Of a stretch of DNA of 41,858 nucleotides, positions 1 to 18,549 are shown piece after piece (positions within the stretch are counted from its first letter, which is position 1; every line of letters starts with the position of its first letter). Position numbers and translations under genes: made by a program. Below the pieces are notes generated by a model. It did not search any database and was not told the origin of the DNA. It saw only the letters and a list, made by a program, of their open reading frames with translations. Source of the DNA: a virus; the UHGV virus genome UHGV-0466892; one strand, given 5' to 3'.

Positions 1-361
1 GATAATCCAGCCACAAATTATATTGCGCCAGTTCCTCACCTTTCAGACGACCAATCGCCGCTTTACCAGGCCATTGCTTACTGTTTATGTATTCGTTGAC
101 CTGATTAATCAATTGCTGCTTTTCCAATTCGGCTGCGGCAATTTGTTCCTCATGAGTTGGCGGTGGAATATCAATCCATGCAGGCATTCTGTCGATGACA
201 CCTCTGTATTTTCCTTCTGGTGCTTCCTTCATAAATTCGGCGGCAACAGTGTCGTCAATTTCGATTCCATCATCTGGCCATTCGCCGGATTCCTGATAAG
301 CGATTTTAAGCTCCACAGGGAAAAACGCATTTTTATTGGCACTGAAAATATATTTCTGCAT
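1..361 (-). CDS. tail fiber assembly protein (Tfa), 5' part; the ORF runs off the window start and continues at 41858..41779
   Basis: Not in the ORF track because it has no stop inside the window. ATG at 361-359; translation MQKYIFSANKNAFFPVELKIAYQESGEWPDDGIEIDD...GRLKGEELAQYNLWLDY is typical of the lambda Tfa / Mu U family; lies 2 nt downstream of the fiber gene stop. Confidence 0.8.
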   Translation of the reverse strand, partial: MQKYIFSANKNAFFPVELKIAYQESGEWPDDGIEIDDTVAAEFMKEAPEGKYRGVIDRMPAWIDIPPPTHEEQIAAAELEKQQLINQVNEYINSKQWPGKAAIGRLKGEELAQYNLWLDY

Positions 362-12949: not shown

Positions 12950-13356
12950 AGCTGGCGACCGCCCGCACCGAACATCGTGATCAGCTGATAAAATTCAGCG
13001 CCATATCGGGTGTTATTCCAGAAGCCTGCGTCAGGGTTTAGCGTCGCGCTGGTGTCATAGCTGACGCTTACCTTGTCAACGGACTTGGAGGACTGAACAC
13101 CATTGGTTGAGCCACCCGGGCCGCCGACGAGCATTGCCCGGCTATCTGCCGCCCAGAGCGTCATGTAGTGAGCCACGAACAACTCGACAAAGTACGGAAA
13201 CAACTCTTTGCCGGTGACGTTTTCGCTCAGCAGCACATCAGCCAGATTCAGACGAAACTGGATTTGTGCTTCGGGATATTTGGCAGGGTCAGCAAACTGT
13301 GGAAAGTCGCGCCGAAAATCACTTACTGTTGGCAGGCTTTGATTCTTTGGCATCTT
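12946..13356 (-). CDS. DUF4054-like head-tail connector protein (start trimmed to an internal Met)
   Basis: ORF 12946..13452; the first ~30 codons are Cys/Arg-rich and overlap the upstream gene, so the likely start is [10 protein letters not shown]. Confidence 0.45.
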
Positions 13357-13708
13357 TCGCCCCATTACCGCCAGTCTGGGCGGCAGCAATCTGCGCTTGC
13401 AGGCTGTCGTTCTGCTCTTGCAGCTTGAGCAGCGCTTCTCGCAGATCGGCAATCAACTGATCTTTATCGATAATCTGCTTATCTTTGTCGGCAATCTGAG
13501 CTTGCAGGCTGTCGATAATGGGTTGCAGATCATCGGTGTCGCTAATCACGCTTTCGGAAAGCTCGGAGTGCGCCTGGGTGAACCAGTGCGACGCGACCTC
13601 TTCCGGTACGTTATGCCGTCCCCGGCCAAACTCCCTTTTTGACTGATCGCCGAGCGTCAGCGTAAACGGGGTGTGAACATGGATGGTAACCAGCTTTTCT
13701 TTCGCCAT
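13319..13708 (-). CDS. coiled-coil head protein (hypothetical)
   Basis: 129 aa; heptad-like segment [42 protein letters not shown]; lies just downstream of the major capsid gene. Confidence 0.45.
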
Positions 13709-14702: not shown

Positions 14703-15206
14703 TTAAATCTTCCAGGAGATTTCTACATTGCCGTTAGCGTCACCGGCCCCTGTGAATTCGGCGTTGGTCAGCGCCACGTTTTTGCCACTGACGGACGTGG
14801 ACATGAAGCCGCCCAGCGGCACTTTTATGGATTCATCAGTGGAGACGACAACGTATACCGGGTCGCCTTTTTTGATGGTGCTGGCATCAAAATCAGAACC
14901 GAGATTAACGGTCATGTAGCCACGCTTCATGGCGTCACCCGGGAAGTTCTTATCCGTCCCCACCTGGCGAACCATGTCTGGCTGCGATGTGGTCGGATAC
15001 GGACGAACGTAGATCCCCTTCACCTTGTCGGCGGTGTCACCGTCCGCCAGCGGCACGAAAAAGCCGTCAGCGTCATATTTGCCAGCCAGACCATAGGCAG
15101 CGAAGGCGTTAGCGGATTTAAGGATCACCGGTTCGACGGTTAAGTCCTGCGGGCGAGAGATAGCCCCGGCAATGCCAACAGGCATCCGGTACAGATATGC
15201 AGTCAT
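14703..15206 (-). CDS. capsid-associated protein (head decoration / DUF2190-like)
   Basis: 167-aa ORF between scaffold and major capsid genes. Confidence 0.45.
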   Translation of the reverse strand: MTAYLYRMPVGIAGAISRPQDLTVEPVILKSANAFAAYGLAGKYDADGFFVPLADGDTADKVKGIYVRPYPTTSQPDMVRQVGTDKNFPGDAMKRGYMTVNLGSDFDASTIKKGDPVYVVVSTDESIKVPLGGFMSTSVSGKNVALTNAEFTGAGDANGNVEISWKI

Positions 15207-15210
15207 TGGA

Positions 15211-16443
15211 TTATCCTTTGCGGTTAGACCAGAAGTCGGCGTTTTGTTTGTTCAGGGAAGCGATGCTGGTCATGCCCATATTTGGACGTTGTGCATCGCC
15301 CGTGGTGCTGCGGGTGTTTCGCCCTTTGGCAATCTCTGACACGGCGTTAAACGCCATATCTACCGATTGCTTGGGCAATTTGCGGATATCCGCATCACCG
15401 ACAACCTGGCGAACCAGTGTTTTGTCAGCGGCAGCCAGCACATCACGTTTGAACGCGGTCGGTTTCACCTTACGGCTCAGATCGATACCCGGGACGATAA
15501 CCTCGGCACGATAGGCAGAGTCACCGGTAATCGTGGTTTCCTCTTCGTCGTCCTCGCCGTCGCCGGTCGGATCTTTTTTGTCTTTTTCGTCAGGCTTATT
15601 GTCGTTATCGCCCGTCGCAGTTCCTTCGAGCTTAGCCAGCAGGGCTTTGAGCAAGGTTTTGATATCGTCCTCGCCGTCGCCGGTTGGATCTCCGCCCATT
15701 TCCGGCTTTTTGTCCGGCAATGGTTGCTGCGGTGAAAGGTTAATGTTGAGGTTAACGCCGCTCGGCAGATCCCCTTCGTCACCCGTTACCGCCGCTGGCG
15801 CAGAGTCCAGCAGTTCGTTCATGGTGTCAGCGTCACCCGTTTTGATGGCCGTGCGCATGCGGGTCCACCAGCTTTTCTTTTGATTTGCCATTGTGTCTCT
15901 GTCTCCAATTGCACAACGATTTCCGGCTCTGCCTTTAGGGACAAGAGCCACATGGTTTCCGGTAATATCGACCTGCTCGGCTTTACCTGGCTCGGTCTGC
16001 TCGTACTCCGCGTCATAGCCGCACGACACTTCGCGCAGACCATCTTCGATAAGCTGAATGGCGCTTTCGTCTTTGACGATAAGGTCTGCCAGCATCAAAT
16101 CAGACTGGTCACCAGTCCCGCGCCGAACGTTCTGAAGATGCCCGACCGCAAGCTCTTTCCAGTTCTCGGGATTTACCAGCCGCACATTCCCGTTTTCATC
16201 TTCAGGATGCAGGATCGTGATGCTCATCCCTTCGAATGAGGCGAGCGTGGCCGGATGGAATACCTGCTCAGGAGAACGCGTTACGACTATCTCACCGAGC
16301 TTGTCGGGTTTGAGGTTTGGCAGATCGGCAGCGCCGTAGAGCTGCTTACCCGTTCGACCTATCGGCACGTCTTTACACAACAGCGAGCCGTCAGCCAGCT
16401 GATAGCGGGTTTCCCCCAGCCGGGTATTGAAAAAATATTTCAT
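15211..16443 (-). CDS. head scaffold / maturation protein (DUF2213-like) with acidic repeat linker
   Basis: 410-aa ORF after the Mu F-like gene; acidic central region containing an in-frame 26-bp duplication. Confidence 0.6.
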   Translation of the reverse strand: MKYFFNTRLGETRYQLADGSLLCKDVPIGRTGKQLYGAADLPNLKPDKLGEIVVTRSPEQVFHPATLASFEGMSITILHPEDENGNVRLVNPENWKELAVGHLQNVRRGTGDQSDLMLADLIVKDESAIQLIEDGLREVSCGYDAEYEQTEPGKAEQVDITGNHVALVPKGRAGNRCAIGDRDTMANQKKSWWTRMRTAIKTGDADTMNELLDSAPAAVTGDEGDLPSGVNLNINLSPQQPLPDKKPEMGGDPTGDGEDDIKTLLKALLAKLEGTATGDNDNKPDEKDKKDPTGDGEDDEEETTITGDSAYRAEVIVPGIDLSRKVKPTAFKRDVLAAADKTLVRQVVGDADIRKLPKQSVDMAFNAVSEIAKGRNTRSTTGDAQRPNMGMTSIASLNKQNADFWSNRKG

Positions 16444-16457
16444 GGTTTACCTGCGAT

Positions 16458-17231
16458 TCAGGCGAGATAAGAATGAGGGTTGGGGAAGACGATTTCTTTG
16501 TAACAGCGGCAGTTCGGCAGCTCACCAGCGTGACCGGTCATACCGTCAAGCGTTGGAGGTCGGCCCCATTCGACAAACTTACCTTCCATCTCCCGATGAG
16601 AATGCCGGACGTCGCCATCTTCGGCTGTACGCCAGATATAACCATTCGAGCCGATTGACAGCGCACGCGCCTGATCCAATGCACCGGTTGCGCGCCCAAG
16701 CTCAGTCCGGGCGATAAGGTTCGCTCGTGAGCGTGACACGTCACCGGAAGCAGCTATCTCTTTCGCGAATGGCTCAGCGCGGCCACCAGTTACTACAGCC
16801 TCGATGGCCTTGTTCTGAATGTCATACACCCGATCGGCGGCCTCAAGAGGCAGAGATTTGATGTACTTAATTTGCTCGGCGACGATGGATTTCATCACCT
16901 GGCCTACCGGGGCGCGGTCGACCATGTTGCGTAGTTCTGCGCTGATGTTCCGACTGTGCTGACGCCACTGCTTTTCATTCTGGCGCGCAATGTCGGCGGT
17001 GAAGCTCTCAGCAACCTTAGTCGCCCAGGGGGTGATGATTTCGCTGTAGCGCTCCAGCGCATCCATTATTTCGGTGACGCTATCGTTTGAACCATCGTAG
17101 CGACCATTTACGATATCCCCGACCGCCCGCGCTATCTGCCGTAGACTCGTTCGATATCGGATCTCCGCCTGGCGGCTCTGGCGGTTTGTCGCCAAGTTCG
17201 CCGATGCCTGGCGGCGCTTCGTCTTCGGCAT
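16458..17231 (-). CDS. head morphogenesis protein, Mu F / SPP1 gp7 family
   Basis: 257-aa ORF downstream of portal; its first ~50 codons overlap the portal 3' end in another frame; alternative start at Met56 near 17066. Confidence 0.7.
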   Translation of the reverse strand: MPKTKRRQASANLATNRQSRQAEIRYRTSLRQIARAVGDIVNGRYDGSNDSVTEIMDALERYSEIITPWATKVAESFTADIARQNEKQWRQHSRNISAELRNMVDRAPVGQVMKSIVAEQIKYIKSLPLEAADRVYDIQNKAIEAVVTGGRAEPFAKEIAASGDVSRSRANLIARTELGRATGALDQARALSIGSNGYIWRTAEDGDVRHSHREMEGKFVEWGRPPTLDGMTGHAGELPNCRCYKEIVFPNPHSYLA

Positions 17232-18549
17232 TCTCGATATCCTCGTCGGTAATGGATGCCCCGATGCCGGTGACGTCAGAGTTTTCGCGCAGGTCGGTCA
17301 TCGCCGCCTTACGCGTCATCAATCCGTCGCCCAGCGCGGTACTGATCGCGTTGGTGGTGTTTACGGCCACCGTTGATCGGTCAACGTCTGACATTTGCCA
17401 TAGCGGGTTAAACTCAAACGTGAAATCGTCCGGCAGCGGCTTTCCGAGTTCCGAGCGGTGCATAATGTCCAGTATCCGGCGCATCGGCAGCCGTAAGCGG
17501 CGCTCCTGCAATGAGCTCACCCGGTCGTAATAGTTGGCGAGGTCTGCATCACCAGTAGAGAAGCCTTTCGGGGATTGACCGAACAGGCGTACCAGCGGGA
17601 TACCAACGGCACCGCTGATCTGCTCAGCAAACTGCGAAAGAATGTCATCCAGACCACTAAAGCTGTACTGGTGGGTTTCGAACTTATCCCGCGAGTCCAT
17701 GAGCGTCATACCTTCATTGCTCTGGAACTGGCGGATCAGGTCGATGTTCTTCAGCAACGCTTCGAACGCCGGGCCTCCAAGCGCGATAAGCTCGCGCAAC
17801 TTCTCCACGCTATAGGTACGCAGATGCGCTTTATAGACCAGCTGCGCCGCGCCGACAGTAGCGCTATCGAACGCAGTAAGCCGATCCCAGATACGCTCTA
17901 CAACCGACATTCCCCATTCGTTTTCGGTCATCTTCTGCTGGAATGGCAGCGTCACCCCGTCGAAGCGAATCAGGCGGCTGTGATGGATGCGCCAGGCCGG
18001 GATGCCCGTTGCAGTGGTCACCACGTCGTAAAACTCAGGCTTGCCGAGGTCCGGCCCCATATCTTTAATGCGGCGGGTCAGCACCGGGTTAATCATCCAG
18101 CGGTCGAGCGGGAGAATGCCCTTAAACTTGCCTTCTCCAATGGTTTCGAGCCGCAACGGGGTCATTGGTGCCTGCCCCTCAATCATGATGAAGCCCACCG
18201 CGCCGCCGTAGAGACGCGACCATTTCAGCACGTCGTTCAGCGCATCCCAGATCTGCAACTCATCCAGCTGCGCTTCCAGGGTGCCACGGTCTTTGGCGTC
18301 AATCTCCGAAGTGATGCGAATGCCTTTCCGGGTCATATCGTCCGGGATAGCGTCGACCGCTTCGCCGATAACCCACGATCCGCGATATGACCATTCCACC
18401 AGCATGCGGTTGCGGCTGGTGAAGTTCGCCCGGTAGGTCGATGCTGAATGCTGGTTAGGCGTCTGCATCCCCACGCGGGCGACAAAGTTTTCATAGCCAT
18501 CAGCGGTGGCCTGCGCCGTTCGCTGAGAGGCTTGCTTGTTTCGTGCCAT
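17080..18549 (-). CDS. portal protein
   Basis: 489-aa ORF immediately after the large terminase gene; acidic C-terminus. Confidence 0.8.
   Translation of the reverse strand: MARNKQASQRTAQATADGYENFVARVGMQTPNQHSASTYRANFTSRNRMLVEWSYRGSWVIGEAVDAIPDDMTRKGIRITSEIDAKDRGTLEAQLDELQIWDALNDVLKWSRLYGGAVGFIMIEGQAPMTPLRLETIGEGKFKGILPLDRWMINPVLTRRIKDMGPDLGKPEFYDVVTTATGIPAWRIHHSRLIRFDGVTLPFQQKMTENEWGMSVVERIWDRLTAFDSATVGAAQLVYKAHLRTYSVEKLRELIALGGPAFEALLKNIDLIRQFQSNEGMTLMDSRDKFETHQYSFSGLDDILSQFAEQISGAVGIPLVRLFGQSPKGFSTGDADLANYYDRVSSLQERRLRLPMRRILDIMHRSELGKPLPDDFTFEFNPLWQMSDVDRSTVAVNTTNAISTALGDGLMTRKAAMTDLRENSDVTGIGASITDEDIENAEDEAPPGIGELGDKPPEPPGGDPISNESTADSAGGRGYRKWSLRWFKR

What the first reader, a model, noticed from the sequence alone, without database searches (positions are those of the whole stretch)
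15548..15690. In-frame 26-bp duplication in the scaffold gene
tcgtcctcgccgtcgccggt(c/t)ggatc occurs at 15548-15573 and 15665-15690, 117 bp apart, encoding two copies of a DPTGDGEDD acidic motif within the linker of the DUF2213-like protein. This suggests a recent internal duplication of a flexible acidic spacer.
Basis: seen in the sequence. Interest (0 to 1): 0.25.

Follow-up and report, generated by a model that had tools for sequence, protein, structure and literature searches.

The report
Conserved acidic repeat in phage scaffold
The 27-base repeat is real, but it is an old, conserved pair of acidic motifs on either side of the probable capsid-docking helix of a phage protease-scaffold protein, not a recent duplication of an inert spacer; it is an ordinary feature of a known protein family.

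Summary
Observation confirmed. A 27-nt direct repeat (26/27) lies at 15548-15574 and 15665-15691, 117 nt apart and in frame. It encodes DPTGDGEDD twice in the 410-aa product of ORF 15211-16443 (- strand). The protein (Pfam PF09979, DUF2213/Pa193_gp24) has an N-terminal domain with the T4 gp21/herpesvirus assemblin protease fold, joined to a scaffold region. The repeats flank a conserved amphipathic helix. That helix aligns with the Pa193 gp24 helix seen by cryo-EM under capsid pentons, and copy 1 aligns with that protein's acidic capsid-contacting turn. The pair is not recent. A copy-specific Pro codon (CCA versus CCG/CCT) is shared by relatives in Citrobacter, Salmonella, E. coli, Hafnia, Pantoea, Shimwellia and Apirhabdus. 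Both motif cores are conserved in 117 protein clusters, while the spacer between them varies in sequence and length. Length heterogeneity exists: a 449-aa variant carries an exact extra 117-bp unit, and 392-407-aa variants carry deletions. Across the wider family, lineage-specific repeats in the scaffold region are about 9-fold enriched over a composition control, and many flank the same helix. Low interest: a new detail in a known kind of protein.

The parts
15211..16443 (-). Gene for the 410-aa protease-scaffold protein (PF09979, DUF2213/Pa193_gp24 family); stop codon at 15211-15213
   Evidence: ORF list. Pfam 8.4e-42. PHROG 1961 2.4e-199, plus PHROGs 530 and 12864 'head maturation protease'. 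99.7% nt identity to Citrobacter phage Omnitron and 100% to a prophage of E. coli WEM25.
15901..16443 (-). N-terminal domain, aa 1-181: assemblin / T4 gp21-type prohead protease fold with invariant H79, S140 and H164
15889..15891 (-). ATG of M185, candidate nested in-frame start for a scaffold-only product (M185-G410, 226 aa)
   Evidence: A Met occurs in this short segment in 42/43 and 65/68 family members. GGAG lies 11 nt upstream here, and an SD-like motif precedes the equivalent Met in 7/7 diverse homologs. Translation shown. Inferred, not shown.
15664..15690 (-). Motif copy 1, DPTGDGEDD (aa 252-260), at the N-terminal cap of the central helix; the DNA repeat copy is 15665-15691
   Evidence: BLASTP aligns T254-A276 with Pa193 gp24 S303-A326, which places D260 opposite E310; ungapped extension places D252 opposite E301. 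The paper reports E301 and E310 as the residues salt-bridged to the capsid.
15616..15663 (-). Central amphipathic helix IKTLLKALLAKLEGTA (aa 261-276), homolog of the Pa193 gp24 'interior helix' that pentamerises under the capsid five-fold vertex
   Evidence: AF2 predicts helix 258-276 at low pLDDT. KALLAKLEGTA against KAILARLEGTA of gp24. Columns 263-272 are 93-100% conserved in 117 clusters. A helix is present at this position throughout the diverse alignment.
15574..15615 (-). Variable spacer TGDNDNKPDEKDKK (aa 277-290). It starts with a conserved T-G-D; the rest varies in sequence and length
   Evidence: Mostly 1-2 bits of entropy per column and up to 36% gaps at 280-291. Indels of 3-5 aa in yong1, 606R2, E2348/69 and ABWA45.
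15547..15573 (-). Motif copy 2, DPTGDGEDD (aa 291-299), before the acidic run EEE and the conserved TGDSAY that opens the C-terminal domain; the DNA repeat copy is 15548-15574
   Evidence: Conserved 79-97% per column. Aligns with HGEGKDV of Pa193 gp24. Absent in the natural 392-aa variants and merged with the preceding ATGD in the 394-aa variant.
15214..15546 (-). C-terminal helical domain (aa 300-410) of the scaffold part
   Evidence: AF2 block-mean pLDDT 82-91 over residues 301-370, 41-72 beyond (segment 380-391 below 50), six helices. Conserved motifs TGDSAY and RAE(I/V)xxPG, with D308, E314, P318 and G319 invariant.

Best explanation
The 27-nt repeat encodes two copies of an acidic motif (D-P-T-G-D-G-E-D-D) on either side of the conserved amphipathic helix in the scaffold half of a protease-scaffold fusion protein of a SEN34/Omnitron-like temperate myophage. 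Shown: the N-terminal 180 residues have the assemblin/T4 gp21 prohead-protease fold with invariant His79, Ser140 and His164. The helix between the repeats aligns with the Pa193 gp24 helix that cryo-EM shows as a pentameric bundle under the capsid five-fold vertex. Motif copy 1 aligns with that protein's acidic turn. Both copies predate the divergence of this phage clade and are under purifying selection. Inferred: copy 1 plus the helix form the element that docks the scaffold onto the capsid inner surface through charge contacts. Copy 2 is a second acidic element of the same kind, between the helix and the C-terminal domain. The near-identity of the two copies at DNA level is inherited from an old duplication or homogenisation. 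Its side effect is to provide a substrate for unequal recombination or replication slippage. That has added a whole 39-residue unit in some prophages (449 aa, three motif copies and two helices), and microhomologies at other TGD codons have given deletions (392-394 aa). So the feature is a functional motif pair and a minor recombination hotspot, not a fresh duplication of filler sequence.
Against: The link to Pa193 rests on a short local alignment (E 0.003 for one pairwise comparison), and a MAFFT-based alignment shifts the helix register by about 4 residues. The window protein lacks an obvious counterpart of the Pa193 'exterior helix': aa 236-251 are Pro-rich and predicted as coil. The basic capsid residues contacted in Pa193 (K293, R295) do not align with basic residues in the window capsid protein, but that alignment is below 20% identity and unreliable. 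The Pa193 authors did not see the same density in the related phage E217. Natural 392-aa variants lack copy 2, so copy 2 may be dispensable. No experiment on this protein exists.
Confidence: 0.6

Rival explanations
1. One reading: a recent internal duplication of a flexible acidic spacer with no specific role, so the near-identity at DNA level reflects youth.
For: 26/27 nt identity. The region has low AF2 confidence. The linker does vary in length among homologs. A truly recent 117-bp duplication exists in another lineage, P0001.
Against: Both copies are orthologously conserved across the whole clade, with copy-specific synonymous markers. The motif cores are more conserved than the neighbouring spacer. 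Synonymous divergence with peptide conservation is seen in yong1. The intervening sequence is a conserved helix, not filler.
Confidence: 0.07
2. The T-G-D motifs, including the two repeat copies, are recognition or cleavage sites for the protein's own N-terminal protease. Cutting at them would chop the scaffold into short peptides and release the helix-containing peptide that stays under the pentons. The two flanks resemble each other because both must fit the same protease. This is compatible with the best explanation.
For: 8 of the 12 TGD tripeptides in the whole predicted proteome of the window lie in this protein, against 0.13 expected. T and D of the sites at 254-256, 277-279, 293-295 and 306-308 are 95-100% conserved. 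D204 and D308 are nearly invariant or invariant family-wide. TGD and TKD are each 5.6-fold over-represented in 133 diverse members. The N-domain has a prohead-protease fold. Only residues 286-326 of Pa193 gp24 are ordered in the virion, and the authors suggest possible cleavage.
Against: There are no cleavage data for any PF09979 protein: a full-text search for DUF2213 gave 7 papers, none about processing, and the Pa193 MS tables are not held. In Pa193 the residues aligned with copy 1 lie inside the ordered fragment, not at its end. Three of the eight TGDs (aa 202-204, 254-256, 306-308) sit directly before a predicted helix, so they could simply be helix-capping or helix-breaking punctuation.
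Confidence: 0.2
3. The acidic D-x-T-G-D-G-E-D-D loops bind divalent cations (calcium-type loops), and the repeat reflects two metal sites.
For: Only the resemblance of DPTGDGEDD to D-x-D-x-D-G type loops, recalled from general knowledge. No tool result supports it.
Against: No Pfam match other than PF09979. The region is predicted disordered. Motif sequences at the same positions in other lineages are not calcium-loop-like, for example KKDEPKK and ETEEEKKKREA.
Confidence: 0.03
4. Chance match or low-complexity artefact, or a DNA/RNA-level signal or a gene on the opposite strand.
For: GC-rich, compositionally biased coding sequence. Antisense ORFs of 116-122 aa overlap the site.
Against: 0 of 100 shuffles give any match. 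The antisense and alternative-frame ORFs have no Pfam hit. There is no credible Rfam match: the single hit has E 0.65, scores far below its gathering threshold and lies elsewhere. Synonymous variation with peptide conservation points to selection on the protein.
Confidence: 0.01

Closest known systems
Pseudomonas phage Pa193 gp24, 'putative scaffolding protein' (PDB 9B40; Pfam PF09979, now named Pa193_gp24)
   Same: Same Pfam family, with the same gene order portal - MuF-like - gp24 - cement/decoration - major capsid. The same invariant His/Ser/His positions align. The central helix followed by LEGTA, preceded by an acidic G-D/E-G-E turn, aligns residue for residue. Pa193 also has a weak second copy, HGEGKD, after the helix.
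   Different: Only about 20-30% identity in the N-domain. Pa193 gp24 is 478 aa and has an 'exterior helix' before the turn, where the window protein has a Pro-rich coil. The Pa193 flanks (SGEGE / HGEGK) are only loosely alike, whereas here they are identical 9-mers. The Pa193 paper does not mention a protease fold (0 occurrences of 'protease').
Nested protease/scaffold genes: herpesvirus UL26/UL26.5, lambda C/Nu3, Mu I/Z
   Same: An assemblin-fold protease is fused N-terminally to a scaffold. A conserved Met with an SD-like motif lies just after the protease domain, which would give a scaffold-only product in the same frame.
   Different: Internal initiation is inferred only. There is no sequence similarity to those proteins beyond the fold. 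The comparison with the lambda, Mu and herpesvirus arrangements is from general knowledge, not a tool result.
T4 gp21 prohead core protease (PDB 5JBL)
   Different: 9% sequence identity. T4's protease is not fused to a scaffold. Cleavage specificity here is unknown.
P22 gp8 scaffolding protein, coat-binding helix-turn-helix
   Same: A charge-based contact of a helix-turn-helix with the capsid interior, the analogy drawn by the Pa193 authors.
   Different: There is no homology. P22 gp8 has no protease domain and exits intact. The polarity of the charges and the binding site on the coat protein differ.

Membership tests
Pfam PF09979 (DUF2213 / Pa193_gp24) | Match to the family HMM above the gathering score | tested here: met
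   143.4 bits against a cut-off of 22, residues 16-181, profile positions 4-166 of 167. A profile of 43 members hits PDB 9b40_G gp24 at E 8.3e-12.
Assemblin / T4 gp21-type prohead serine proteases | Assemblin-like fold of the catalytic domain | tested here: met
   [not shown]
Assemblin / T4 gp21-type prohead serine proteases | Conserved catalytic Ser and His residues | tested here: inconclusive
   H79, S140 and H164 are invariant in 43 and 68 diverse sequences and conserved in Pa193 gp24. Their spatial arrangement and superposition on known triads could not be checked, because no residue-level structural alignment is available.
Assemblin / T4 gp21-type prohead serine proteases | Proteolytic activity on head proteins | not testable with these tools
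   No experimental data were found for any PF09979 protein.
Pa193 gp24-type capsid-docking helix-turn-helix | Interior (pentamerising) amphipathic helix preceded by an acidic turn | tested here: met
   BLASTP of window 254-307 against gp24 303-352, E 0.003. L265, L269, L272 and A276 lie opposite V315, L319, L322 and A326. D260 lies opposite E310, and D252 opposite E301 by ungapped extension.
Pa193 gp24-type capsid-docking helix-turn-helix | Exterior helix N-terminal to the turn | tested here: not met
   Window aa 236-251 (SPQQPLPDKKPEMGG) is Pro-rich and predicted as coil with pLDDT below 50.
Pa193 gp24-type capsid-docking helix-turn-helix | Complementary basic residues on the capsid protein inner surface | tested here: inconclusive
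   Window MCP against Pa193 gp26: BLASTP E 0.15. A four-sequence MAFFT alignment puts A232 and H234 opposite K293 and R295, but identity is below 20%.
Nested protease/scaffold gene pair (lambda C/Nu3 type) | Conserved in-frame internal start with a ribosome-binding site at the protease/scaffold boundary | tested here: inconclusive
   Met present in 42/43 and 65/68 members. An SD-like motif is found in 7/7 homologs, but in five it lies within the conserved I-G-D codons. Expression is not testable.
Tandem-repeat contingency or phase-variable locus | Head-to-tail array whose copy-number changes switch the reading frame or expression | tested here: not met
   TRF finds no array covering the two copies. 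The copies are 117 nt apart, and all natural length variants keep the frame.

The most novel reading that the evidence does not exclude
Across the PF09979 family, the segments on either side of the penton-docking helix are repeatedly made identical within a genome while differing between lineages (DPTGDGEDD x2 here, KEPTGDED x2, KTKDAEGEE x2, KKTDDEDESAE x2, and a 20-residue pair in P0374). The most novel reading is that these are twin functional sites: either two cuts by the cis-encoded protease that excise the helix peptide retained in the virion, or two equivalent capsid contacts. They would be kept matched by gene conversion and would co-evolve with the protease or the capsid, rather than being by-products of slippage in acidic low-complexity sequence.
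Probability: 0.15. Interest if true: 0.5.

Novelty: new member of a known kind. Interest (0 to 1): 0.25.

Why it matters
The finding itself matters little: it is a conserved internal repeat in a known phage head-assembly protein. The follow-up adds three modest points. (1) It ties the repeat to a structurally characterised element, the Pa193 gp24 penton 'dowel pin', and so predicts which residues of SEN34/Omnitron-like scaffolds touch the capsid. (2) The 'putative scaffolding protein' family PF09979 carries an assemblin-fold protease domain with invariant His/Ser/His and probably a nested scaffold-only start. That places it with the lambda C/Nu3 and herpesvirus UL26/UL26.5 arrangement. (3) It documents natural copy-number variants (one extra 39-residue helix unit, or loss of copy 2). 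These are ready-made material for testing how scaffold length and acidic contacts affect capsid assembly.

Tried and rejected
- phmmer of the protein against PDB sequences gave nothing at E up to 1. Only the family profile reached 9b40_G.
- tblastn of a 36-aa Pa193 peptide against the phage collection found nothing, probably because of the low-complexity filter. The N-domain peptide worked.
- The genome-contig scan returned only 6 loci, so the codon-level comparison rests on 14 genes rather than the roughly 80 hoped for.
- Recent gene conversion as the cause of the 26/27 identity in this lineage was considered and rejected, because the copy-specific Pro codons are shared across genomes. Homogenisation at an earlier time, and in other lineages, is still likely.
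- Conservation of the Pa193 capsid contact residues in the window capsid protein was inconclusive.
- The Pa193 mass-spectrometry supplement is not held.
- The literature on DUF2213 is sparse and says nothing on processing.
- Antisense ORFs, RNA families and tandem arrays all gave nothing.
- TGD enrichment in other head proteins, which would suggest shared protease substrates, was not seen: the portal and the terminase each have one TGD, and the capsid, cement and MuF-like proteins have none.

Full report
1. THE OBSERVATION. The window holds a 27-nt direct repeat at 15548-15574 and 15665-15691 (26/27 identical), 117 nt start to start. With up to three mismatches it occurs nowhere else in the 41,858 nt, and 0 of 100 dinucleotide-preserving shuffles give any match. 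Both copies lie in ORF 15211-16443 on the minus strand (410 aa). In codon register they are aa 252-260 (15664-15690) and aa 291-299 (15547-15573), and both translate to DPTGDGEDD. The 30 residues between them are IKTLLKALLAKLEGTATGDNDNKPDEKDKK.

2. THE PROTEIN AND ITS SURROUNDINGS. The ORF matches Pfam PF09979 (DUF2213; 143 bits, residues 16-181) and PHROG 1961, plus PHROGs annotated 'head maturation protease'. Its minus-strand neighbours form a standard head module: portal (17080-18549), Mu F-like protein (16458-17231), cement/minor capsid protein of the E217 gp24/XM1 gp53 type (14703-15206) and major capsid protein PF09950 (13750-14691). The gene is 99.7% identical to Citrobacter phage Omnitron and 88-93% identical to Salmonella phage SEN34 (Brunovirus), four E. 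coli phages and Hafnia phage yong1. It is present in prophages of 338 of 5,426 complete E. coli genomes, one of them 100% identical.

3. LINK TO A SOLVED STRUCTURE. Current Pfam labels PF09979 'Pa193_gp24'. The Pa193 cryo-EM paper (PMC11456595) reports that gp24 residues 286-326 form a helix-turn-helix. Five copies make a bundle under each capsid five-fold vertex. The interior helix contributes V308, I312, V315, L319, L322 and A326. The acidic turn is EMSGE (301-305), and E301 and E310 are salt-bridged to capsid R295 and K293.

A profile of 43 family members hits the gp24 chain 9b40_G at E 8e-12. I retrieved the gp24 gene. BLASTP aligns window 254-307 with gp24 303-352 (E 0.003): TGDGE-DDIKTLLKALLAKLEGTA against SGEGEVAELISQVKAILARLEGTA. 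This places window L265, L269, L272 and A276 opposite gp24 V315, L319, L322 and A326, and D260 opposite E310. By ungapped extension D252 lies opposite E301. Copy 2 (TGDGEDD) aligns with gp24 HGEGKDV.

So the segment between the repeats is the homolog of the penton-docking helix, and copy 1 occupies the position of the capsid-contacting acidic turn. There are caveats. The alignment is short. A MAFFT-based alignment shifts the register by about four residues. The window protein has a Pro-rich coil where Pa193 has its exterior helix. The capsid-side contact residues could not be shown to be conserved.

4. AGE AND SELECTION. Both copies are present at the same positions in SEN34, vB_EcoM-606R2 and yong1, in prophages of Shimwellia, Pantoea, Apirhabdus, Enterobacter and several E. 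coli strains, and in most of the 120 closest database clusters.

Codon by codon, copy 1 uses Pro codon CCA in all 13 genomes where position 2 is Pro (SEN34 has Val, GTG). Copy 2 uses CCG or CCT in all 14. The two copies were therefore already distinct before these phages diverged, at about 12% gene divergence. In yong1 the copies differ at five synonymous sites yet both encode PTGDGED.

In an alignment of 117 clusters the motif cores are strongly conserved: T254 and D256 at 100%, D259 and D260 at 97-98%, and P292, T293, D295, E297 at 91-97%. The spacer at 280-291 has mostly 1-2 bits of entropy per column and up to 36% gaps. This is purifying selection on both motifs. It is not the pattern of a young duplicate or of filler sequence.

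5. LENGTH HETEROGENEITY. Cluster lengths are 410 (57 clusters), 406 (26), 407 (16), with rarer 392-394, 408-418, 446 and 449 aa.
- P0001 (449 aa = 410 + 39) occurs in two independent assemblies with identical genes. It has three motif copies and two helices. Its two 117-bp units differ at one nucleotide, and the middle motif has the copy 2 start (GAT CCG) and the copy 1 end (GAT ATC). That is the product expected from unequal recombination or slippage between the two 27-nt repeats.
- P0002 (446 aa, one contig) is a separate duplication with different breakpoints.
- P0021 (394 aa) fuses ATGD276 to GEDD296.
- P0020, P0025 and P0027 (392 aa) lack copy 2 entirely.
- No 371-aa single-unit deletion appears among the 120 best clusters.

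6. A FAMILY-WIDE PATTERN. HMMER finds 6,415 representatives at E up to 0.001. In a diverse alignment the post-protease architecture is conserved. It runs: helix, T-G/K-D, helix (about aa 190-213), an acidic variable stretch, the central amphipathic helix followed by (L)EGxT-x-D, a second acidic stretch, then TGDSAY and RAEIxxPG opening the C-domain.

Of 237 diverse members, 67 carry a near-exact internal repeat of at least 7 residues in this region, against 7.6 (maximum 15) in block-shuffled controls. Nine carry exact 8-mers, against none in the controls. Many of these pairs flank the central helix, and their sequences are lineage-specific: KEPTGDED, KTKDAEGEE, EAKDGDDE, KKTDDEDESAE and a 20-mer in P0374. 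Two pairs checked at DNA level are 57/60 and 32/33 identical. Duplication or homogenisation in this region is therefore recurrent. The 237 proteins are not phylogenetically independent, so the enrichment is qualitative.

7. THE TGD TRIPEPTIDE. The protein contains eight TGDs, at aa 110, 202, 220, 254, 277, 293, 306 and 381. The whole predicted proteome of the window has twelve, and 0.13 would be expected per 410 aa from composition. TGD and TKD are each 5.6-fold over-represented across 133 diverse members. D204 and D308 are nearly invariant or invariant. Three of the TGDs (202, 254, 306) sit directly before a predicted helix. They may be cleavage sites for the cis protease or helix-capping punctuation. 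Neither can be tested here, and no processing data were found.

8. OTHER READINGS EXCLUDED. The antisense and alternative-frame ORFs have no family match. No credible RNA family matches. There is no tandem array covering the copies.

9. VERDICT. It is wrong on the two points that carry meaning. The duplication is not recent in this lineage, and the region is not an inert spacer. The best explanation (confidence about 0.6) is a conserved pair of acidic motifs flanking the capsid-docking helix of a protease-scaffold protein, whose DNA identity also makes it a minor recombination hotspot. This is a new detail within a known family, and interest is low (0.25).

Noticed in passing
window 15889-15891 (ATG of M185, - strand), with GGAG 11 nt upstream (about 15903-15906): A Met recurs just after the protease domain in 42/43 and 65/68 family members (background Met frequency 2.1%). 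An SD-like motif precedes it in 7/7 diverse homologs, including Pa193 gp24. This suggests a nested in-frame start giving a 226-aa scaffold-only product, as in lambda C/Nu3, Mu I/Z and herpesvirus UL26/UL26.5. In five homologs the SD-like motif lies within the conserved I-G-D codons, so the evidence is not fully independent.
   Followed up: partly
L022 (E. coli ABWA45 NZ_CP022154.1, about 3581.9-3593.9 kb); also L005:4565-5794, L007:2400-3185 and L018:1-86: An island of about 12 kb is inserted between the DUF2213 gene and the cement-protein gene of a SEN34-like prophage. It carries an arm-type integrase, an Icd-like protein, a second tyrosine recombinase, a TOPRIM/DUF927 primase and an M41-peptidase-like gene. 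The same integrase position directly after the DUF2213 gene is seen in three separate genomes. It looks like a P4-like or satellite-type element that integrates inside the head operon of this prophage type.
   Followed up: partly
[not shown]
   Followed up: yes
P0006 and P0008 (576 aa; Logan and ENA contigs); corresponds to window 14703-16443: Two database proteins are fusions of the DUF2213 protein with the downstream cement protein (Pfam PF09979 + PF22758/PF23982). In the window the stop codon at 15211-15213 and the cement start at 15206 are only 4 nt apart. This is likely loss of the stop codon, a frameshift or a sequencing error.
   Followed up: no
window 13319-13708 (- strand, 129 aa), just downstream of the major capsid gene: A small coiled-coil protein (PHROG 2619, unknown function) has weak sub-threshold similarity to phage scaffolding proteins (Pfam PF06810 E 0.004; PHROG 194 'head scaffolding protein' E 1e-3). 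It is annotated as 'STY1053 family phage-associated protein' in E. coli.
   Followed up: no
[not shown]
   Followed up: no
window 17080-18549 (portal, - strand), C-terminal tail: The portal C-terminus contains PPGGDPISNESTAD, which resembles the EMGGDPTGDGEDD context of motif copy 1. The portal also has one STGDAD (TGD at aa 332). This may be chance.
   Followed up: no
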